Part shown: piece after piece, positions 3,858 to 62,840 of the stretch
Numbering within the stretch: the stretch's first letter is position 1
Layout: each line of letters begins with the position of its first letter
IMG/VR virus record: IMGVR_UViG_3300030419_006105
Span: 52,367-116,366 of that record
Length of the DNA stretch: 64,000 nt
Direction: 5' to 3' (one strand)
DNA from: a virus
Translations under genes and position numbers: made by a program
The notes under the pieces: generated by a model
Database searches by the model: none
What the model saw: the letters and a program-made list of their open reading frames with translations, nothing else
Told to the model about the DNA's origin: nothing

Positions 3858-6515
3858 GTGTATAGAAATTTAGCCTACATACCTAATCAACGAGTCATGA
3901 GACTCTACACATGGGATGAGGATGGAGTACGAATAGAAACTGATTGTCCATATCAACCATATTTTTATTATGAAACAAACTCAAATAGATATGACGGAGT
4001 GTCGTTATATGGTACTAAATTAAGAAAAGTCTTCGCTAATAGTAATTTAGATCGCCGTAAAAAAATTGAAGATTTAAATGATCATAAAATTTATGAAAAC
4101 ATTACCCCGTATCAGCAATTTTTAGTAGATAGGTTTTGGGAAGTAAATGAAACTGACGATTTTAGTAAATTTCCTTTAAAGGTTTGGTTTTTTGATATTG
4201 AGACATATTCCCCTGACGAGTTTCCGAAACCAGAAGAAGCTAGTCATATGATAAATGTTATCACCATATATGACACTGTAAAGAAAACATATTATACATG
4301 GGGAATTAATCCATATACTCCGAAGACAGATGATGTAGTTTATTTTCATTGCAACAATGAAGTCGATTTGTTGCAACGATTTTTAGATTTTTATTGTGAA
4401 GATAGACCAGATATATTATCCGGGTGGAATAGTGAAATATTTGATGTTCCGTATGTAATAAATCGAGTTAGAAATCTCTTAGGAGAAGATGCAACAAGAC
4501 TGTTTTCACCAGTTCATGACGAAATAATGAAACCAATTTACCAGAGAGTGTACAAAGGTAATTTTGGTAAAACTACTACAAAATACGTTGTAGAAGGTAT
4601 ATCTATGCTTGATTATCTTGACGTGTATAAAACCTTCAGCATGGGTATGAGAGACAGTTATAAGCTAGATAACATAGCCCATATAGAACTAGGAGAGAAC
4701 AAGGTAGATATAGGAGAAACTAACCTCGCATCCCTATCTATACAAGATTGGGACAAATTTGTTGATTATAATATTCATGACGTAAGACTACTAGTACGAT
4801 TGGAAGCAAAGCTAATGTATATGGATTTAGCTAGAATGTTATCATATATTGGATTAACACCGTTTAACGCTGCTTTAGGTACAATTAGTACTGTTAATGG
4901 TAGGGCTATAGTTGAAGCCCGAAAGCAAGATCCTCCAAGGGTTATACCAACTTTTATAAAAGGAGACGATAGAACCGAAAAATATGAAGGTGCATATGTC
5001 GGTGAACCAAAACGTGGTTTTCAAGATAATATTATCTCTTTTGATGCTAATTCTCTATACCCTAGTGTGATGGTAACTTTAAATTTAAGCCCAGAAACGA
5101 AAGTAGGAAGCATTGTTGGAACAGATAATGACAAGGTTTATGTAAAGACTGTAAATAACAAGGATATTGAAATGTCTTATAGTGATTTCAATAAATGGTG
5201 TACAAAAAATGAAATTGTAATTACTCGCGCAAAAAAATTATTCTCACAAAAAACCAAAGGAATCTTTCCTAGAATTACAGATCATTTTTATGCAATACGT
5301 TCTGGTAAAAAACAAGAATGGAACGAAGCTCGTGAAGAATTACATCAATTATCTGTGAAAATAGAGAACGAAACAGATGAGAAAAAATTAGACATCTTAA
5401 GAGAAAAATCAAAAGCTACACAGTTTAAGATTGACCAACTTTGGATTTGGCAATTTACACTAAAAATTCTTATTAACCGAATTTATGGTTATTTTGGTAA
5501 TAAAATATCACAAATGGGTGATGGTGATATTGCAAGATCAATTACTTTAACTGGCAGAGATGTAATTAAACAAAGTAATATTATTCTAAGAAATTATATT
5601 AAAAAGGTAACTGATTTAACTGACAAAGACTTAGATAAAAATGATCCAATTATTTATAATGACACAGATAGTTCATATTGTACAATTACACCTATTTTGA
5701 ATCATATGGGTATACCCTTACATATTGATAATAAAATTGATGATAGAGTATATAAAATAGTACAAGATATAGAAGATGATTTAAATGTTAATATTGAAAA
5801 ATGGGCCAGGGAAACTCTATTAACTAAAGACCCACGGTTTGTATTTAAACGAGAGTCTATTTGTGATAAAGGAATATTTTTACAGAAAAAAAGATATGTA
5901 CTTCATAAATTAGATGACGAAGGAGTTGTATGTAATAAATTCAAATATACAGGTGTTGAAGTAGTGAGAACTACAATGCCTAATGCAATAAAACCATATG
6001 TGAAGAAAATTATTGAGCATATGATTATGACTAAAAACCAAAATAGTACTAATGAATTATTTGAAGAAACATATGAAATTTTTAAGTCTCTTCCTATTAG
6101 GGATATTGCATTTGTAATGGGTGTTAAAGAGTATGAGAAATATAGTATATATGCTAAAAACTGGGAAGTTAAAAAGGGAACACCTATACATGTTAAATCA
6201 TCTATATACTATAACAAACTATTAGAGCATTATGGTATATCTCAAAAATACGAAGCTATTGGTTCAGGAGACAAAATACGATACTTTTATACAGTAACTC
6301 CAAATAAATTTGGTTTAAACTCTCTTGGATTTAAATATGATTTTCCAGAGGAGTTTGAACAAGACTTTAAAATAGACTATGAAAAGATGTTTGATAAGAT
6401 TGTTTATAGTGTTATTGATAGATTTTATGAAAATGTAAATTGGAAATCTTTTAAACCCGGTCAAGCAGTAAACATGGACCTATTTGATTTCTTTAAAACA
6501 GAAGTTGCAAATTAA
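3858..6515 (+). CDS. gp43: Family B DNA polymerase (T4 gp43-like)
   Basis: Exonuclease motifs FDIET, GWNSEIFD, YNIHD. Polymerase motifs DANSLYPS, K..IN.IYG, YNDTDS, KKRY. Confidence 0.97.
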   Translation: MYRNLAYIPNQRVMRLYTWDEDGVRIETDCPYQPYFYYETNSNRYDGVSLYGTKLRKVFANSNLDRRKKIEDLNDHKIYENITPYQQFLVDRFWEVNETDDFSKFPLKVWFFDIETYSPDEFPKPEEASHMINVITIYDTVKKTYYTWGINPYTPKTDDVVYFHCNNEVDLLQRFLDFYCEDRPDILSGWNSEIFDVPYVINRVRNLLGEDATRLFSPVHDEIMKPIYQRVYKGNFGKTTTKYVVEGISMLDYLDVYKTFSMGMRDSYKLDNIAHIELGENKVDIGETNLASLSIQDWDKFVDYNIHDVRLLVRLEAKLMYMDLARMLSYIGLTPFNAALGTISTVNGRAIVEARKQDPPRVIPTFIKGDDRTEKYEGAYVGEPKRGFQDNIISFDANSLYPSVMVTLNLSPETKVGSIVGTDNDKVYVKTVNNKDIEMSYSDFNKWCTKNEIVITRAKKLFSQKTKGIFPRITDHFYAIRSGKKQEWNEAREELHQLSVKIENETDEKKLDILREKSKATQFKIDQLWIWQFTLKILINRIYGYFGNKISQMGDGDIARSITLTGRDVIKQSNIILRNYIKKVTDLTDKDLDKNDPIIYNDTDSSYCTITPILNHMGIPLHIDNKIDDRVYKIVQDIEDDLNVNIEKWARETLLTKDPRFVFKRESICDKGIFLQKKRYVLHKLDDEGVVCNKFKYTGVEVVRTTMPNAIKPYVKKIIEHMIMTKNQNSTNELFEETYEIFKSLPIRDIAFVMGVKEYEKYSIYAKNWEVKKGTPIHVKSSIYYNKLLEHYGISQKYEAIGSGDKIRYFYTVTPNKFGLNSLGFKYDFPEEFEQDFKIDYEKMFDKIVYSVIDRFYENVNWKSFKPGQAVNMDLFDFFKTEVAN

Positions 6516-34932: not shown

Positions 34933-34947
34933 TAATTAAATAATTAT

Positions 34948-36651
34948 ATGGCAGAACTGACTGCAGAACAACTCAATGCTTTAATGGGTAATCAAAGAAG
35001 CATTGAACGCAATAGATCTGAGATGGAGGCATTCCGACAACAGGATATTCCTCCCATTATTAATCAATTAAGAGAGGTTAATAGTAAATTATTCAGTTTA
35101 GCGGAATCTGTTGGTCGGATAGTAAGACAAGTAGATAAACCACCTGTAATCAAAAACGGAGATAACGGAGATGATAATTCTGAACAAAAGACCGACAAAA
35201 TGGTCACTACTCCGTTAGAAACAATCTCCAATCATTTAGCTGATATTAAAGATTTTCTCAAACAAACATTTCAACCTACAGGTCTTTCTGGATCAACTCA
35301 AGATACAAATATAGGAATGCTTGATAAGCAGGAAAAAGAAGATCAAGAAGAAGATCAAAAACAAATAGCAGCAGGACCGAAAGGAACTGCTCTTGCATGG
35401 TTAGGTGGTTTATTCGCAGTTGGTGCTTTAGGTCAACTTAGTAAAGTATTCGGTATCGGAGCAGGGGCTGGTGTCGCCGGTGGTTTATTAGCTAAGATAG
35501 GACCTAAGATATTTAAGTGGACTGGACCTATAATGAGACGTATACCTATTATCGGTTCTTTATTTTCATTTTGGGAAGCCTATAAAAAGTTTCAAGCTGG
35601 TGGTATAGATAATATAATATTTGGTTTAATGGATGTTGCTGCTGGTATTGCGTATGCAGTACCAGGCATTGGCACTGCTATAGGTCTAGGTCTAGATGTA
35701 CTTCAATACTTTTTAAAAGAGAAAGCTAATGAATGGAAAAAGGAAACTGGTGAGACTAGCTTCTTTGGAAGTATGTGGGATAAGATAATGGAATATTTGA
35801 AAAAGACCCCAATGTTTAAATGGTTTATTGATACTGGTAAAAAAGGTAAAGAGTTTTGGAATAAACCAACATGGGAAACATTTAAGGCGTTTGGTGGTCA
35901 ATTTTTCAGTGTTCTTCAACCATTGTTAAATACATTTAGTATGCTTGATAAAGATGCAGGTGCAGCATTAGGTTTAACAGATGACAAGGGTAAACCACAA
36001 GGGTTATTTGGGTGGGTTGCGGATAAAGTAGATGAATGGATTATTACACCTGTAATGGATTTTTTAGAAAGCATATTTGTTTCAATTGGTGAAAGTATGA
36101 TAAAGGTAGGAAAATCAGTTGATGATTTTATTAAAAGAGTTGTTGATAATAATATTTCTGATGGAATGATAAAAGATAGTGTCTATTGGGCTTTTGGTTG
36201 GAATAAAGGACCAGAACCAGAAGGAGGCTGGGGTGAAGTAGAGGGACTTACAGACGGAGGTGAACATAAAGAAGCTCGGAAAGAAGGTATATCTAAGCTT
36301 AGAAAAGCCGATATAGAACGTATTAAAAAATGGGGCAAACTAGTCGGGGGTCACTACTCAACTCAAGAATATTTTAATTCTCTACCTAACCTATCAGATG
36401 AAGGAATACAAGAACAATTAAAAATGCTAAAATTTAAAGCTTCAAGAAGAGGCCTAGAATTTAAAAAAGTACCAGACCCTCAAACAGTGCCACCAACAAT
36501 AGAACAAGAACAATTCTTTAAAAATCAGTTACGCGAGTTCATTAAACCACAAAGTAATATTAATACTAGTATAAACAACCAATCAGTTACATACGTAGCT
36601 CCAGTGTCTCCGTCAGTAAAACATTTAACCCAGCAAGGTATAGGTGGATAA
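34948..36651 (+). CDS. Putative tape measure / gp29-like protein
   Basis: Helical, with Gly/Ala-rich hydrophobic stretches (RRIPIIGSLF, VPGIGTAIGLG), located in the tail cluster. Confidence 0.6.
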   Translation: MAELTAEQLNALMGNQRSIERNRSEMEAFRQQDIPPIINQLREVNSKLFSLAESVGRIVRQVDKPPVIKNGDNGDDNSEQKTDKMVTTPLETISNHLADIKDFLKQTFQPTGLSGSTQDTNIGMLDKQEKEDQEEDQKQIAAGPKGTALAWLGGLFAVGALGQLSKVFGIGAGAGVAGGLLAKIGPKIFKWTGPIMRRIPIIGSLFSFWEAYKKFQAGGIDNIIFGLMDVAAGIAYAVPGIGTAIGLGLDVLQYFLKEKANEWKKETGETSFFGSMWDKIMEYLKKTPMFKWFIDTGKKGKEFWNKPTWETFKAFGGQFFSVLQPLLNTFSMLDKDAGAALGLTDDKGKPQGLFGWVADKVDEWIITPVMDFLESIFVSIGESMIKVGKSVDDFIKRVVDNNISDGMIKDSVYWAFGWNKGPEPEGGWGEVEGLTDGGEHKEARKEGISKLRKADIERIKKWGKLVGGHYSTQEYFNSLPNLSDEGIQEQLKMLKFKASRRGLEFKKVPDPQTVPPTIEQEQFFKNQLREFIKPQSNINTSINNQSVTYVAPVSPSVKHLTQQGIGG

Positions 36652-55704: not shown

Positions 55705-55722
55705 TAGGAATTAAATAATTAT

Positions 55723-56607
55723 ATGGCCATAGAAGACGAAATCATTAATATTTCTGATATAGATGTAGGTACGGAAATACTCAACAACGATAAGATCATT
55801 ATTGAAACCAATAATGGCACCAAACTACTAGCCTTTAAAGACTTTGTAATTGGTGAAGACAACATAACATTTAAAGACAAACTAATTCAAGGTCGTGACG
55901 AAACCGGTGCTGTTACATCTACAGTATTTACCACAGTCACTGGTTTTGATATACTAACAAAAGATTCATCGGCTGGCCATATAACGACGTATCAAGATGT
56001 TAGTGGGTCTATAGGACTAACACAGTTTAATTTTAACGCTGTGTCTCATTTAGCTACATTATCTGGAATGACTGAACGACATGAAGGTGAGATTGCTAAT
56101 TTAAAATCTCAACTATCACAAATTAATACTACATTTACAAGTTCAAGTGCTTTAAGTACAACTAAGCTAACATTATCAGCTACTAATTTTAAAGCAACTA
56201 TGCATGGTAGATCTCAGAATATGAGATATATAGGATTTAGTAAATGGGATTTGAATCCAACTGATTATAATCCATCGGTAACTGCTTCTATTAATCCGTT
56301 TAAAATAACATATCCTACAGACGGGTCATTTAATGCTGGATGGGTACAATTTATAGGTCTACTAGACGGGAGAAGCCCGAGTACTTCTAGATTTGAAGCT
56401 TCAATATATAGAGCTAGACCAGGTTCTTCACAGGGTGACAAAATTTTCACAACTAATTGGCGACAATCTTCTGGATCAGGAGGGAGTGCAATTCAAACAT
56501 TCAATCACTTAGAATGGATTGAACCAGGAGACACAATAACAATATCATCTGGTGAGAAACGAATGTATGGAGCTGGTTCATATTTTTCAGGAGTAAAACT
56601 AGGATAA
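55723..56607 (+). CDS. Putative short fibre protein (coiled coil plus C1q/TNF-like head)
   Basis: INISDI...NDKIIIET..GTK fibre-type N-terminus, short coiled coil, and C-terminal GDTITI...SYFSGVKL. Confidence 0.55.
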   Translation: MAIEDEIINISDIDVGTEILNNDKIIIETNNGTKLLAFKDFVIGEDNITFKDKLIQGRDETGAVTSTVFTTVTGFDILTKDSSAGHITTYQDVSGSIGLTQFNFNAVSHLATLSGMTERHEGEIANLKSQLSQINTTFTSSSALSTTKLTLSATNFKATMHGRSQNMRYIGFSKWDLNPTDYNPSVTASINPFKITYPTDGSFNAGWVQFIGLLDGRSPSTSRFEASIYRARPGSSQGDKIFTTNWRQSSGSGGSAIQTFNHLEWIEPGDTITISSGEKRMYGAGSYFSGVKLG

Positions 56608-60444: not shown

Positions 60445-60933
60445 TTAACTCAAGTCTGGTTTATCGGATAACTTTTCTAAAATATGATAAACTTCGATAA
60501 ATTCTTTTTTATACCTTCTTTCAAATCTCCTTGCATCTACTTCCCACTTATTGTAACAATAAGCTCTCCGCTCTTTATCACAATCTTCATCTGTGTAATT
60601 TAATTTAGATTCTGCAACCCCAAATACATTGTCTTGCATCCAATGTCTAAACTCATGAAGAAAATGACTTACAAATGTATCTAATTTTTTTTCTCTACCC
60701 CACCCGTGTTGATCTAAATTTTCTGTTATATAAACTTCGTTAAATCCAAAATAATAACCACTACTGTCTCCTTTTGACTTTATTACCTGCAGTTCAGTAT
60801 GATCTGGCTTTTTCTTCATACGAACCTGATTCAGAATTATATTAAGACACTTCTCGATAACTTTTATATTAATTTCGTTAGCTCGAAGCCATCTTCTCAC
60901 GCTGGGTTTTGCTTTCAACTCAACCACGTTCAT
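60445..60933 (-). CDS. HEXXH zinc metallopeptidase-like protein
   Basis: SHFLHEFRHWMQ...YNKWEVDAR. TAAATA-N5-ATG upstream. Confidence 0.7.
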   Translation of the reverse strand: MNVVELKAKPSVRRWLRANEINIKVIEKCLNIILNQVRMKKKPDHTELQVIKSKGDSSGYYFGFNEVYITENLDQHGWGREKKLDTFVSHFLHEFRHWMQDNVFGVAESKLNYTDEDCDKERRAYCYNKWEVDARRFERRYKKEFIEVYHILEKLSDKPDLS

Positions 60934-60969
60934 ATAATTATTTAGTCGAACTATCCTACTGATCAGACA

Positions 60970-61082: not shown

Positions 61083-62108
61083 TTAACCAGCTATCATAAT
61101 TTCTGGTTCTTTGACAATTGGCTTCTTAAATCTGTCAGTACCAGTTAGCAGATTTAATGCACGGCGCTTGAATCGATCCATCTGACCACCTGGAGTGCTC
61201 AAACTACCAATTCGGTTCTGGATGTACTCATGATTCTTATTCTCAATAGCATTTGCCATCCGAGTTGCATGCTGATGATGATCAACATATTCAGTCACTG
61301 CATTAAATGCATCCCAGCGTGACTTACCAAGGTTACCAGCACCTCGTGAGAACAATGCCGCAATATCATTGTGACGATTAATTGTACGCTCATCTTCTGT
61401 ATCTTTCATCGGATATAATTGACCGAGGAAGTTGTACAACTCTTCCTTAGAAATTGCCTTACTATCAAGCTTAGCAAAATCAGTGTACATGTTCTTCAAG
61501 CTATTAATATTCTTAGCGAAGATTTCCTTAACTGTGTCCAATCGCTTCTCCCAATTAGCAAAATGCTGGATTCGATAATCACGAGTAGACTCTTTAGTCA
61601 TCGCAACAAACTGATTATTACATGCACCTCGCATTGACGTCGGGAAGATACAATTAGACACAATACCATCCTGACCAATCAACATTGTAAGCATGGAATT
61701 AATCTTATCACCCTTACGATTAGGAATCTCAAATGTATAATCTTTTGGCAATTGTGCCTGTACCCAAATCCGACTACCACCACGCATAACACCAGCAGCC
61801 TTATAATCTGCTCCATACATTTTACGAACCTCGTCAAATGCATCAATTAATTCATGATTCTGAATCGGTGCATACTTACGACCAGTAACAGCGTAAACCT
61901 GACCAGTCTTATTATTACGCAATCCGTAAAACCTGTCGAAATTGTCGTTTCCGGTGGCTTCTCCTAGATTGACCTGCTCTACCTCGAAATCTAGACCAGC
62001 TTTACTATAAAGCTCATCTTTACTTGAGATCTGATGAACACCTTCTACTGCTATTGCTGAGTGTTCGTTAATATCCTGTAATGCTACGTTTCTGTCGTTA
62101 ACTCTCAT
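61083..62108 (-). CDS. DUF932-family phage/plasmid protein
   Basis: AGLDFEV, Y.PIQN.E, AG...GG.RIW, R..CNNQ, H, WDAFNAVTEYVDH. Confidence 0.85.
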   Translation of the reverse strand: MRVNDRNVALQDINEHSAIAVEGVHQISSKDELYSKAGLDFEVEQVNLGEATGNDNFDRFYGLRNNKTGQVYAVTGRKYAPIQNHELIDAFDEVRKMYGADYKAAGVMRGGSRIWVQAQLPKDYTFEIPNRKGDKINSMLTMLIGQDGIVSNCIFPTSMRGACNNQFVAMTKESTRDYRIQHFANWEKRLDTVKEIFAKNINSLKNMYTDFAKLDSKAISKEELYNFLGQLYPMKDTEDERTINRHNDIAALFSRGAGNLGKSRWDAFNAVTEYVDHHQHATRMANAIENKNHEYIQNRIGSLSTPGGQMDRFKRRALNLLTGTDRFKKPIVKEPEIMIAG

Positions 62109-62117
62109 AACTCGTTT

Positions 62118-62146
62118 ATTATAGACTGTCTCTTATTCTTTATCAA
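62118..62146 (-). promoter_or_regulatory. Early sigma70-type promoter of DUF932
   Basis: TTGATA-N17-TATAAT, then AAACGAGTT-ATG. Confidence 0.8.
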
Positions 62147-62240
62147 CTACTTTCTTCCGGATATATGAGCCTTTACCCTTTCGAGGCTTGTGAACTCGAG
62201 TTCCTGTATTGAACTTGATTATTACTCTTGGCTTTTTCAT
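62133..62240 (-). CDS. ArfA-like (alternative ribosome rescue factor A motif) micro-protein, 35 aa, not in the ORF track
   Basis: MKKPRVIIKFNTGTRVHKPRKGKGSYIRKKVVDKE* compared with E. coli ArfA RVEKNKKGKGSYMRK. Confidence 0.7.
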   Translation of the reverse strand: MKKPRVIIKFNTGTRVHKPRKGKGSYIRKKVVDKE

Positions 62241-62311
62241 TTTTCCGGAACTTAATCTGAAGTTTATTCTGATTAACCATTATTCGCATTTTTACTGCCA
62301 TAACTTCGATT

Positions 62312-62340
62312 ATTATAGGTATTTATAATGAGACAGTCAA
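62312..62340 (-). promoter_or_regulatory. Early sigma70-type promoter (with a TATAAATA box in its spacer)
   Basis: TTGACT-N17-TATAAT, then AATCGAAGTT-ATG at 62301. Confidence 0.8.
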
Positions 62341-62840
62341 GTCTTTTGTTTTGGATACTCCAAAATTTGATATTCTAAAAGTAACTTAGTGTTATTTATT
62401 TTTTGTCTATCGTATTTATTGTATGTACCACTCCAATGAAATTCTCCGGCGCAGAAGTCAGCACGACCATACCACTCATCATGCGGTATTATAAAGTGCA
62501 TATTATTTAATATATCAATTATTGTCATATAATCGAATAAATTTCTCTTATTTTTATTACATGAATTAATTCGCAAGTATCCTTCTTTTCCGTTTTTATC
62601 TTTTTGCCGATAACTAGTAGATTTGACCTCGTATTTTTTACCGTTAATTATTCCGTCATATCCTGGAGCGTCGCAAAATTCTCCATTATAATAATCAAAG
62701 AATTGACGTTCAACTATGTGACCTTGTAAAATATTGTCTTTTTTTATTTTCATATCAAAATCCGGTAAACGCGGATCTCGCAAAAATAATGTTTCAGGAC
62801 GCTCTTTACAACGATTAATGATAGAGTTTATATCAAACAT
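62337..62840 (-). CDS. Putative PD-(D/E)xK nuclease-like protein
   Basis: G..VE...GYDGIINGKKYEVKST. Confidence 0.6.
   Translation of the reverse strand: MFDINSIINRCKERPETLFLRDPRLPDFDMKIKKDNILQGHIVERQFFDYYNGEFCDAPGYDGIINGKKYEVKSTSYRQKDKNGKEGYLRINSCNKNKRNLFDYMTIIDILNNMHFIIPHDEWYGRADFCAGEFHWSGTYNKYDRQKINNTKLLLEYQILEYPKQKT

What the first reader, a model, noticed from the sequence alone, without database searches (positions are those of the whole stretch)
62133..62240. Hidden ArfA-like ribosome-rescue micro-protein in the early region
Seen: an unannotated 35-aa ORF, MKKPRVIIKFNTGTRVHKPRKGKGSYIRKKVVDKE, downstream of a consensus promoter. Known: ArfA (E. coli RVEKNKKGKGSYMRK) inserts its KGKGS segment into the empty mRNA channel and recruits RF2. 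Cellular ArfA is normally made from a truncated non-stop mRNA under tmRNA control. Here the ORF has its own stop, and lacks the N-terminal helix and hydrophobic tail. Inference: a constitutive viral factor that recycles ribosomes stalled on cleaved mRNA (countering RNase toxins or host mRNA decay), or that plugs the channel. This is notable given the leaderless architecture.
Basis: partly seen in the sequence, partly recalled or inferred. Interest (0 to 1): 0.78.

Follow-up and report, generated by a model that had tools for sequence, protein, structure and literature searches.

The report
Hidden phage mini-ArfA ribosome-rescue-like gene
A real, conserved 35-residue early gene of a marine T4-like phage keeps only the ribosome-docking half of the bacterial rescue factor ArfA, so it probably acts on stalled ribosomes during infection, but no experiment has tested this.

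Summary
The 35-aa ORF at 62133..62240 (-) exists exactly as described. It is a real gene. It is kept in 8 of 9 related phage contigs, its variation falls mostly on third codon positions, and dN/dS is 0.03-0.27. Gene callers recorded the overlapping 42-aa frame instead.

It passes Pfam ArfA narrowly (25.8 vs 25.5 bits). It belongs to a family of 35-50-aa proteins with the core [FW]NTGxRVHKPKKGKGSYxRK. A profile of this family finds only ArfA chains in the PDB (E 5e-6).

The shared part corresponds to ArfA's RF2-recruiting strand and its mRNA-channel tail. ArfA's N-terminal activating helix, its KH motif and its non-stop mRNA design are absent here. Some relatives do have the KH motif or a terminator inside the frame.

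The family is mainly viral, with syntenic chromosomal copies in Verrucomicrobiota.

My best reading is a constitutively made, stripped-down rescue factor (about 0.5). The main rival is a channel plug or inhibitor (about 0.2). No biochemical test exists.

Two papers name phage ArfA-domain genes in passing. This scan has noted similar phage ArfA-like micro-genes on other DNA before.

The parts
62133..62240 (-). Mini-ArfA gene: 35 codons plus a TAA stop.
   Evidence: ORF list. Pfam ArfA hit. Kept in 8 of 9 related loci. Third-position bias. dN/dS 0.03-0.27.
62151..62201 (-). Residues 14-30 (TRVHKPRKGKGSYIRKK). This segment is homologous to the ArfA 27-43 region: the RF2-augmenting strand Q27-E30 followed by the mRNA-channel tail.
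   Evidence: Pfam alignment on profile positions 25-41 of 44. Same place found in the six-frame search. PDB alignments to ArfA chains. The roles of the ArfA residues come from review PMC8012679.
62202..62234 (-). Residues 3-13 (KPRVIIKFNTG). This N-terminal module is specific to the family and has no counterpart in canonical ArfA. R5, N11, T12 and G13 are invariant in 30 family members.
   Evidence: Family alignment A2. Pfam profile positions 1-24 are unmatched.
62312..62340 (-). Sigma-70-type early promoter TTGACT-17-TATAAT.
   Evidence: 11 of 12 matches. The hexamers are conserved in the related loci that carry the gene. Same geometry in all 6 distinct lineage sequences.
62173..62301 (-). 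Overlapping 42-aa upstream ORF 'A' (MAVKM...). Its ATG lies 10 nt after the -10 hexamer, so it is near-leaderless. Its last 22 codons overlap the mini-ArfA gene in another frame.
   Evidence: This is the frame recorded by gene callers. Its first 19 codons give dN/dS 0.09-0.29 within subgroups. In the overlap its frame is not constrained: variable columns 14/7/5 by its codon positions.
62118..62146 (-). Second promoter-like site, TTGATA-17-TATAAT, for the downstream DUF932 gene. Its -35 hexamer lies inside the last codons of the mini-ArfA gene.
   Evidence: 11 of 12 matches, with the -10 hexamer ending 9 nt before the ATG at 62108. The -10 hexamer and the start are conserved in all 9 related loci aligned.
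61083..62108 (-). Downstream DUF932 / TIGR03299 gene, a recurrent neighbour of mini-ArfA genes in phages.
   Evidence: Pfam PF06067 at 4.2e-32. TIGR03299. A DUF932 homologue lies within 3 kb of the mini-ArfA gene in 10 of 19 viral loci examined.

Best explanation
The ORF is a genuine early gene of a marine, SD-less, T4-like myovirus. It encodes a 35-residue 'NTG-type mini-ArfA'.

Inferred mechanism: the basic tail (K21-G-K-G-S-Y-x-R-K) threads into the empty mRNA entry channel of a ribosome stalled at the 3' end of a broken message. The preceding strand (T14-R-V-H) takes the place of ArfA Q27-E30 and docks a class-I release factor. The factor then hydrolyses the peptidyl-tRNA, freeing the ribosome for phage messages.

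Unlike cellular arfA, the gene has its own stop codon and sits behind a strong early promoter. The factor would therefore be made constitutively during infection, not only when tmRNA is overwhelmed.

Shown: the gene is real, it is under purifying selection, it is homologous to the C-terminal half of ArfA, and it belongs to a family.

Inferred, not shown: ribosome binding, release-factor recruitment and activation, and any benefit to the phage.
For: Real gene:
- Kept in 8 of 9 related loci.
- Variable columns by codon position are 7/5/14 in the overlap and 4/4/10 beyond it.
- dN/dS is 0.03-0.27 in 13 of 15 pairs; the other two pairs are saturated.
- The other two frames carry stops over the conserved 28-codon core.

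Homology to ArfA:
- Pfam ArfA at E 7.2e-6, just over the cut-off.
- 30 of 30 family members hit only ArfA.
- The family profile finds only ArfA chains in the PDB, at E 5.1e-6 to 7.2e-5. Profile positions 18-40 align to ArfA 27-49 in the 72-aa chain.
- The same profile pulls canonical-type ArfA (P0216, P0246) out of 1.84 billion representatives at E 1.5e-4 and 6.8e-4.

Function of the shared part: in the review PMC8012679 (passages read), Q27-E30 of ArfA recruit RF2 by strand addition, and the following tail lies in the mRNA channel, modelled to residue 46-48. The phage protein ends at the position aligned to residue 48.

Family-level links to rescue:
- 3 of 17 other viral loci (L036, L040, L041) have a terminator-like hairpin inside the reading frame before the stop. 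This is the arfA design (L041 was also found by the tool scan).
- Several members keep ArfA's KH motif at the same spacing (read by eye).
- P0099, L018 and L019 carry an ArfA-like DP[LM]F motif upstream of the NTG module.
- Five Verrucomicrobiota genomes carry the gene. In two of them it sits in a syntenic, non-phage context between a T2SS-F gene and a PSCyt/PSD1 gene. This argues for a housekeeping-type role, not a poison.

Precedent: ArfT is 40 aa, has its own stop and rescues with RF1 or RF2 (PMC6299226, passages read).

No SD is needed in this genome: 1 of 62 long ORFs has an SD-like site.
Against: - The N-terminal 26 residues of ArfA are absent. They include helix 15-24 and the N-terminus, which order with the RF2 switch loop. 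ArfA(A18T) shows that this part is needed to activate RF2 (PMC8012679).
- F25, the RF2-specific contact, has no aligned counterpart. The conserved F/W sits two residues further from the R-V pair than F25 does in ArfA.
- The KH motif is absent in the window protein, which has V31-V32 at those positions.
- The Pfam score is borderline and covers 17 of 44 profile positions. The six-frame search scored 22.9 bits, below the cut-off.
- NCBIfam gave no hit at E <= 1.
- The single sequence against the PDB gives only E 0.19-0.28.
- The host is unknown, so nothing is known about its release factors.
- In this lineage the promoter-adjacent ATG belongs to the overlapping ORF A, whose translation could interfere with initiation at the mini-ArfA ATG.
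- ArfB-like genes are present in 3 of the 5 Verrucomicrobiota genomes that carry the family, so there is no complementary distribution to lean on.
Confidence: 0.5

Rival explanations
1. Channel plug or rescue inhibitor. The peptide binds the vacant mRNA channel, and may recruit RF2 in its closed form, but cannot activate hydrolysis. It would block tmRNA-SmpB, ArfA or ArfB, or park ribosomes. This could protect phage products from tmRNA tagging or blunt a host response that depends on rescue.
For: - Only the docking half of ArfA is conserved.
- The activating N-terminal part is missing, and ArfA(A18T) is a natural example of binding and recruitment without activation (PMC8012679).
- The same review notes that a peptide equal to the SmpB tail inhibits trans-translation (Conclusion passage).
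- Expression is constitutive, from an early promoter with an own stop codon.
Against: - Chromosomal, syntenic copies in Verrucomicrobiota are hard to reconcile with a pure inhibitor.
- Relatives with a terminator inside the frame (L036, L040, L041) copy the logic of a back-up rescue factor.
- The N-terminal module, with invariant R5, N11, T12 and G13, is under strong constraint. This suggests it does more than anchor the peptide.
- ArfT and BrfA show that unrelated N-termini can activate release factors.
Confidence: 0.22
2. A small basic protein with a target other than the stalled ribosome, for example a nucleic-acid binder or a partner of the neighbouring DUF932 protein. The KGKGSY stretch would be shared with ArfA by descent or convergence without shared function.
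For: - The similarity covers only about 17-23 residues of a lysine-rich peptide.
- A DUF932 homologue is within 3 kb in 10 of 19 viral loci, together with GP88 and L5_gp82-type early genes. This could mean a shared but unknown pathway.
Against: - The profile hits are specific to ArfA in both Pfam and the PDB, and nothing else scores.
- The KH motif, the DPLF-bearing intermediates and the arfA-like non-stop design in relatives tie the family to ArfA biology.
- The DUF932 linkage may only reflect related phage backbones.
Confidence: 0.1
3. The functional product is a fusion of about 55 aa. Ribosomes would start at the near-leaderless ATG of ORF A (62301) and shift +1 into the mini-ArfA frame. 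This would supply an N-terminal extension of about 20 residues in place of ArfA's missing head.
For: - ORF A's first 19 codons look coding: it is the only open frame there, and dN/dS is 0.09-0.29 within subgroups.
- The mini-ArfA frame is +1 relative to ORF A, 61 nt apart.
- In 8 of 16 other lineages the mini-ArfA itself starts at the promoter-adjacent start codon.
Against: - I saw no conserved shift site. The A-run at the junction is only 4-6 bases and varies.
- L004 and L010 have a stop in the mini-ArfA frame three codons before its ATG, which leaves almost no room for a shift.
- The ATG of the 35-aa ORF is conserved in all carriers.
- Family members elsewhere are free-standing, with 10-20 residues before the NTG motif.
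Confidence: 0.05
4. Not a gene. It would be a chance ORF inside the leader or promoter region of the DUF932 gene, with conservation due to regulatory DNA.
For: - Short ORFs abound here: 52 of >=20 aa in 4 kb.
- The 3' end of the ORF overlaps the DUF932 promoter.
- No RNA or protein data are available.
Against: - Third-position bias and dN/dS of 0.03-0.27.
- Arg codons interchange among CGA, AGA, CGC and CGG while the residue is kept.
- Hundreds of database homologues exist in unrelated contexts.
Confidence: 0.03

Closest known systems
ArfA (YhdL), alternative ribosome-rescue factor A of beta- and gamma-proteobacteria; Pfam PF03889; PDB 5H5U, 5MDV, 5MGP, 5U4I and 7OJ0
   Same: The strand-plus-tail segment is shared. 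The window's TRVHKPRKGKGSYIRK aligns to ArfA QRVEKNKKGKGSYMRK. The family profile aligns to ArfA 27-49. Both are small basic peptides. The phage protein ends at the position aligned to the last ordered ArfA residue.
   Different: - It has no equivalent of ArfA residues 1-26 (N-terminus and helix 15-24). A conserved KPRxx[VI]x[FW]NTG module stands in their place.
- It has no KH motif.
- It has no hydrophobic C-terminal tail.
- It has its own stop codon and no hairpin inside the frame.
- It is phage-borne, whereas published surveys place ArfA only in gamma- and beta-proteobacteria, plus BrfA in the B. subtilis group (PMC11633108 and PMC8012679, passages read).
ArfT of Francisella tularensis (40 aa)
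   Same: It is a very small stand-alone rescue factor with its own stop codon. It is not regulated by mRNA truncation, and its basic C-terminal stretch resembles ArfA's KGKGS (PMC6299226, passages read).
   Different: ArfT has KKGGSTNKK, not KGKGSY. Its authors judged it to have evolved independently of ArfA. It works with RF1 or RF2. I did not compare it with the window protein by sequence, because I held no ArfT sequence from a tool.
BrfA of Bacillus subtilis
   Same: It is RF2-dependent. It recruits RF2 by strand addition and binds the channel with a basic C-terminus that carries a KH motif. Its N-terminus is unrelated to ArfA's yet still activates RF2 (PMC8012679).
   Different: No sequence similarity was detected. 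It is made from a non-stop mRNA, as ArfA is. The window protein lacks KH.
Phage genes already labelled ArfA: pelagiphage HTVC027P gp30 and Citromicrobium phage RXM g10
   Same: Both are phage-encoded small proteins with a PF03889 match. gp30 is transcribed during infection (PMC12753301, passage read). RXM g10 is named ArfA in PMC8953757 (passage read).
   Different: gp30 is 58 aa and has an IIKPKKGRGSFKR tail but no NTG module, so it belongs to another subfamily. I did not look at the RXM g10 sequence. Neither protein has been tested biochemically according to the passages I read.
Chromosomal NTG-type mini-ArfA of Verrucomicrobiota MAGs (NCBI name 'alternative ribosome rescue factor ArfA')
   Same: It has the same architecture and core: 39 aa, KPRVRVKWNTG.RVHKPKKGKGSY, and its own stop.
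   Different: - It is cellular, in a syntenic context.
- It keeps the KH motif.
- It uses a non-ATG start.
- A strong terminator follows about 13 nt after the stop (by eye).

Membership tests
ArfA (Pfam PF03889) | Sequence match to the family model above the curated cut-off | tested here: met
   25.8 bits against a cut-off of 25.5, E 7.2e-6, but only profile positions 25-41 of 44 are matched. The six-frame search scored 22.9 bits, below the cut-off. The result is borderline and partial.
ArfA (Pfam PF03889) | Basic C-terminal segment with the KGKGS motif that lies in the empty mRNA channel | tested here: met
   K21-G-K-G-S-Y26-x-R28-K29 aligns residue for residue to ArfA K34-K42. K21, G22, G24, S25, Y26 and R28 are invariant in 30 family members. 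Occupancy of the channel itself was not tested.
ArfA (Pfam PF03889) | Beta-strand Q27-E30 that recruits RF2 by strand addition | tested here: inconclusive
   T14-R15-V16-H17 aligns to Q27-R28-V29-E30, and R and V are identical. Whether it pairs with RF2 could not be tested.
ArfA (Pfam PF03889) | N-terminal region (residues 1-26: helix 15-24, A18, F25) that contacts the decoding centre and activates RF2 | tested here: not met
   Profile positions 1-24 are unmatched. Residues 1-13 form a different conserved module. Canonical-type hits P0216 and P0246 do show the helix region.
ArfA (Pfam PF03889) | KH motif in the tail (K44-H45) | tested here: not met
   The window protein has V31-V32 at the aligned positions. 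The motif is present at the same spacing in other family members, for example P0004, P0045, P0057 and L030.
ArfA (Pfam PF03889) | Synthesis from a truncated non-stop mRNA (hairpin, RNase III site or terminator inside the ORF), hence control by tmRNA | tested here: not met
   The gene has its own TAA. There is no conserved structure (consensus -5.3 kcal/mol) and no terminator-like hairpin in 0 of 6 lineage sequences. The feature is met in the relatives L036, L040 and L041.
ArfA (Pfam PF03889) | RF2-dependent peptidyl-tRNA hydrolysis on non-stop ribosomes | not testable with these tools
   This needs biochemistry.
ArfT-like factors | Tiny stand-alone factor with its own stop that works with RF1 or RF2 | not tested
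   Size and own stop agree. I made no sequence comparison and could not assess release-factor usage.
NTG-type mini-ArfA (unnamed family defined here) | 35-50 aa; core R-x2-[VI]-x-[FW]-N-T-G-x-R-[VI]-H-K-P-K-K-G-K-G-S-Y-x-R | tested here: met
   The window protein is the first row of alignment A2 and carries all ten invariant residues. There are 143 cluster representatives at E <= 1e-3.

The most novel reading that the evidence does not exclude
Phages carry their own minimal rescue factor, in which a 10-residue NTG module replaces ArfA's whole RF2-activating head.

It would be made constitutively and early, often from leaderless messages: 8 of 16 other lineages have this geometry. It could then strip ribosomes off the mass of decapitated host mRNAs, or off mRNAs cut by RNase-type defence toxins, and hand them to phage messages without tmRNA tagging.

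In this lineage, the conserved near-leaderless upstream ORF that reads through the mini-ArfA start would act as a translational gate on its synthesis.
Probability: 0.2. Interest if true: 0.75.

Novelty: new variant of a known kind. Interest (0 to 1): 0.55.

Why it matters
Published surveys treat ArfA as confined to beta- and gamma-proteobacteria.

A mainly viral family that keeps only ArfA's docking half would do three things:
- It would define the minimal peptide able to recognise an empty mRNA channel.
- It would test whether release-factor activation needs ArfA's head at all.
- It would add ribosome rescue, or its blockade, to the list of host functions that phages take over.

The protein is 35 residues long and can be synthesised chemically, so it can be assayed directly. 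It is also an example of a real gene hidden because gene callers chose the overlapping frame.

Tried and rejected
- Megablast of the 3.3-kb region against the phage collection found no match.
- tblastn of the 35-aa and the 48-aa frames against the phage collection found only a chance Microviridae hit at E 4-6. The low-complexity filter and the short query make this search blind, so it is not evidence of absence.
- NCBIfam gave no hit for the 35-aa protein. PHROGs gave only a weak phrog_37108 match at E 0.007, with unknown function.
- Complex prediction with RF2_ECOLI plus the family alignment gave no verdict (scores 0.00 and 0.01; controls were not run). It is neither for nor against binding.
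- The AlphaFold2 model of the peptide alone had mean pLDDT 62.7 and no secondary structure. I had considered a beta-hairpin (VIIKF - NTG - TRVHK), but no model supports it, so I leave it out.
- The look-up of sequencing runs listed no RNA holder, so I did not use read laying.
- I looked for a conserved hairpin or terminator inside the window's ORF and found none.
- I looked for phage-borne helpers in the 116-kb record:
  - no tRNA or tmRNA (aragorn);
  - no RF-1 domain;
  - no RegB (the control rang nowhere, so this is uninformative).
  The record is only about 58% complete.
- I looked for a complementary distribution with ArfB in the five Verrucomicrobiota genomes. Short RF-1-domain frames occur in 3 of 5, so there is no such pattern.
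- I considered +1 frameshift and transcriptional slippage joining ORF A to the mini-ArfA frame. I rated this low because I saw no conserved shift site.
- The host could not be assigned. TerL is only about 36% identical to cyanophage and rhizobiophage terminases.
- I could not open supplementary tables of the cited papers. Those with ArfA/ArfT distributions may list short forms that I did not see.
Full report
**Observation.** The ORF lies on the minus strand at 62133..62240. Short ORFs are common here: one search lists 52 of >=20 aa in 4 kb. The ORF alone is therefore not remarkable.

The window is the last 64 kb of a 116,366-base IMG/VR virus record that CheckV rates as about 58% complete. Its G+C content is 31%. 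The record encodes a tail sheath, a baseplate wedge, a large terminase, a DNA polymerase and a helicase. Its terminase is only about 36% identical to those of T4-like cyanophages and rhizobiophages. DNA runs that hold the stretch are marine metagenomes, and no RNA run is listed.

**Is it a gene?** I used the downstream DUF932 protein (61083..62108, PF06067 at 4e-32) to fetch ten related phage loci at 84-93% identity.
- Nine loci include upstream DNA. Eight of them carry the small ORF at tblastn E <= 1.2e-14.
- In L009 the upstream DNA is replaced, and only the last few dozen bases are alike.
- There are six distinct sequences. Variable alignment columns fall on codon positions 1/2/3 as 7/5/14 in the part that overlaps another ORF, and as 4/4/10 beyond it.
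- NG86 dN/dS over the 28-codon core is 0.03-0.27 in the 13 computable of 15 pairs. The other two frames contain stops over that core.
- Arg15 is kept through CGA, AGA, CGC and CGG.

The ORF is therefore under strong purifying selection as a protein.

The exact 35-aa sequence is not in the 15-billion-protein collection, whereas the overlapping 42-aa ORF (62173..62301) is. Gene callers took the other frame, which is why the gene looked 'hidden'.

**What it resembles.**
- Pfam gives one hit, ArfA PF03889: E 7.2e-6 and 25.8 bits against a cut-off of 25.5. Residues 14-30 align to profile positions 25-41 of 44. The six-frame search scored 22.9 bits.
- Alone against the PDB, the six best hits are all ArfA chains, but only at E 0.19-0.28.
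- A profile of the six lineage sequences found 623 proteins at E <= 1 among 8000 scored candidates. The best 120 are mostly 35-50 aa. By my count 74 of them carry PF03889 as a precomputed domain. Several are named 'stalled ribosome alternative rescue factor ArfA' by JGI or 'alternative ribosome rescue factor ArfA' by NCBI.
- A 30-sequence alignment (A2) gives the core R-x2-[VI]-x-[FW]-N-T-G-x-R-[VI]-H-K-P-K-K-G-K-G-S-Y-x-R. R5, N11, T12, G13, K21, G22, G24, S25, Y26 and R28 are invariant.
- All 30 members hit only ArfA in Pfam.
- The A2 profile hits only ArfA chains in the PDB, at E 5.1e-6 to 7.2e-5; the next hit has E 1.1.
- Against 1.84 billion representatives, the A2 profile finds 143 clusters at E <= 1e-3 and 48 at <= 1e-10. 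The weaker hits include canonical-type ArfA with the N-terminal helix region (P0216 and P0246).

**What is shared with ArfA and what is not.** Using the numbering of the 72-residue chain, T14-K29 align to ArfA Q27-K42, and the protein ends opposite residue 48. According to the passages I read in review PMC8012679:
- Q27-E30 recruit RF2 by adding a strand to its domain II/IV sheet.
- F25 adds RF2-specific contacts.
- Residues 15-26 (helix 15-24) touch the decoding centre.
- Residues 1-14 become ordered with the RF2 switch loop on activation.
- ArfA(A18T) binds the ribosome and recruits RF2 but does not activate it.
- The tail lies in the mRNA channel, modelled to residue 46-48, with a KH motif in a pocket.

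The phage protein keeps the strand and the KGKGSY-R-K tail. It has a different conserved 13-residue N-terminus, and it has V31-V32 where ArfA has KH.

Other family members are closer to ArfA:
- Several have KH at the same spacing: P0004, P0045, P0052, P0057, P0099, L030, L013-L015, L017 and L050.
- P0099, L018 and L019 carry an ArfA-like DP[LM]F motif upstream of the NTG module.

I read this as a series running from full ArfA-like forms to N-terminally stripped 'mini' forms. The window protein is at the minimal end.

**Regulatory design.** Cellular arfA is made from a truncated non-stop mRNA (PMC8012679). Following a lead from earlier scan notes, I looked for hairpins.
- In the window's lineage there is none. 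The consensus structure energy is -5.3 kcal/mol, and 0 of 6 sequences show a terminator-like site.
- Three of 17 other viral loci (L036, L040, L041) have a terminator-like hairpin plus T-run inside the frame before the stop. The tool scan confirms L041 but not L036.
- The window gene is therefore an own-stop, presumably constitutive variant.

Two promoter-like sites with 11 of 12 matches are the best in the 4-kb region.
- The first is at 62340..62312. Its -10 hexamer ends 10 nt before the ATG of the overlapping 42-aa ORF A. The mini-ArfA ATG is 61 nt further on, in the +1 frame.
- The second is at 62146..62118. It overlaps the last codons of the mini-ArfA gene and ends 9 nt before the DUF932 ATG.
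- In 8 of 16 other viral lineages, a sigma-70-like promoter with >=10 of 12 matches ends 6-9 nt before an in-frame start of the mini-ArfA itself. That predicts a leaderless message.

ORF A's first 19 codons are the only open frame there. They give dN/dS 0.09-0.29 within subgroups and 0.16-1.24 between subgroups. In the overlap its frame is unconstrained. I read ORF A as a probable short upstream ORF of unknown role. A +1 fusion is unlikely, because I saw no conserved shift site and L004/L010 have a stop in the mini-ArfA frame three codons before its ATG.

The lack of a Shine-Dalgarno site is normal for this genome: 1 of 62 long ORFs has one.

**Distribution and context.**
- In one genome per GTDB species, a scan confirmed nine loci: five in Verrucomicrobiota MAGs and four more divergent ones in Bacillota/Clostridium.
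- In two Verrucomicrobiota genomes, the gene sits in the same non-phage neighbourhood, between a T2SS-F gene and a PSCyt/PSD1 cytochrome-type gene.
- A DUF932 homologue lies within 3 kb in 10 of 19 viral loci. Other recurrent neighbours are GP88 and L5_gp82-type early genes.
- The own record has no tRNA or tmRNA and no RF-1 domain.

**Literature.** I read search listings and passages only.
- Pelagiphage HTVC027P gp30 is reported to have an ArfA domain and to be expressed during infection (PMC12753301). Its sequence has the tail but no NTG module.
- Citromicrobium phage RXM g10 is called ArfA (PMC8953757).
- A 2024 survey restricts ArfA to gamma- and some beta-proteobacteria, plus the B. subtilis group (PMC11633108).
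- Searches for 'ArfA-like' and 'PF03889', and for ArfA with phage terms, found no study of a phage mini-ArfA family in this library.
- ArfT is 40 aa, has its own stop and uses RF1 or RF2. It shows that so small a factor can work (PMC6299226).

**Verdict.** The most likely function is a constitutively expressed, minimal, release-factor-dependent rescue factor (about 0.5). A non-activating channel plug is the main rival (about 0.2). The choice between them needs biochemistry. The same kind of phage micro-gene has been noted repeatedly by this scan on other DNA. I rate it a new variant of a known kind, of moderate to good interest.

Noticed in passing
window, whole (e.g. 55709-55725, 34934-34950, 60934-60947): The genome is essentially free of Shine-Dalgarno sites: 1 of 62 ORFs of >=90 aa has GGAG, GAGG or AGGA at -4..-16. 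TAAATA lies within 18 nt upstream of the first ATG in 19 of 62 such ORFs, against 2% of all ATGs, and it ends 5-7 nt before the ATG in 14. This looks like T4-type late promoters placed so that late messages are leaderless or nearly so.
   Followed up: partly
window 62173-62301 (-): A 42-aa ORF starts 10 nt after the early promoter's -10 hexamer and reads through the mini-ArfA start in another frame. Its first 19 codons look selected (dN/dS 0.09-0.29 within subgroups), but its overlapping half does not. It is the frame recorded in public protein sets. Its role is unknown; it could be a gating upstream ORF.
   Followed up: partly
L002 2055-2200; L005, L006 and L031 just downstream of the mini-ArfA gene: In sister lineages a second, very basic small ORF (MAAK[IN]KKQRVWER..GVKTRKTVTV...) follows the mini-ArfA gene. 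The window's lineage lacks these roughly 130 bases, and the mini-ArfA 3' end abuts the DUF932 promoter instead.
   Followed up: no
L036 2281-2302, L040 4080-4108, L041 1706-1728: Family members in other phages have a terminator-like hairpin and T-run inside the reading frame before the stop codon. This is the design that makes arfA a non-stop mRNA.
   Followed up: partly
L012-L016 (Verrucomicrobiota MAGs), about 4001-4120: These are chromosomal 39-aa mini-ArfA genes with non-ATG starts, a KH motif, and a strong terminator about 13 nt after the stop. The context is syntenic in L012 and L015. Short ArfB-like frames are present in 3 of the 5 genomes.
   Followed up: partly
window 62337-62840 (-) and 60445-60933 (-): Two flanking early ORFs have no significant family hit. 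The 167-aa one has a D...E-V-K stretch that looks like a PD-(D/E)xK nuclease motif by eye. The 162-aa one has an HExxH-like HEFRH and weak hits to DUF3920 and HDNR.
   Followed up: no
window 62157 and 62245: TCCGGAA occurs on both sides of the mini-ArfA gene. These two sites are not conserved in L003. I did not pursue this.
   Followed up: no
P0182 (431 aa) and P0181 (649 aa): One database protein ends in a complete NTG-type mini-ArfA module fused to a 390-aa N-terminal part. Another matches the N-terminal half of the profile eight times in a repeat protein. Either could be a gene-call artefact.
   Followed up: no
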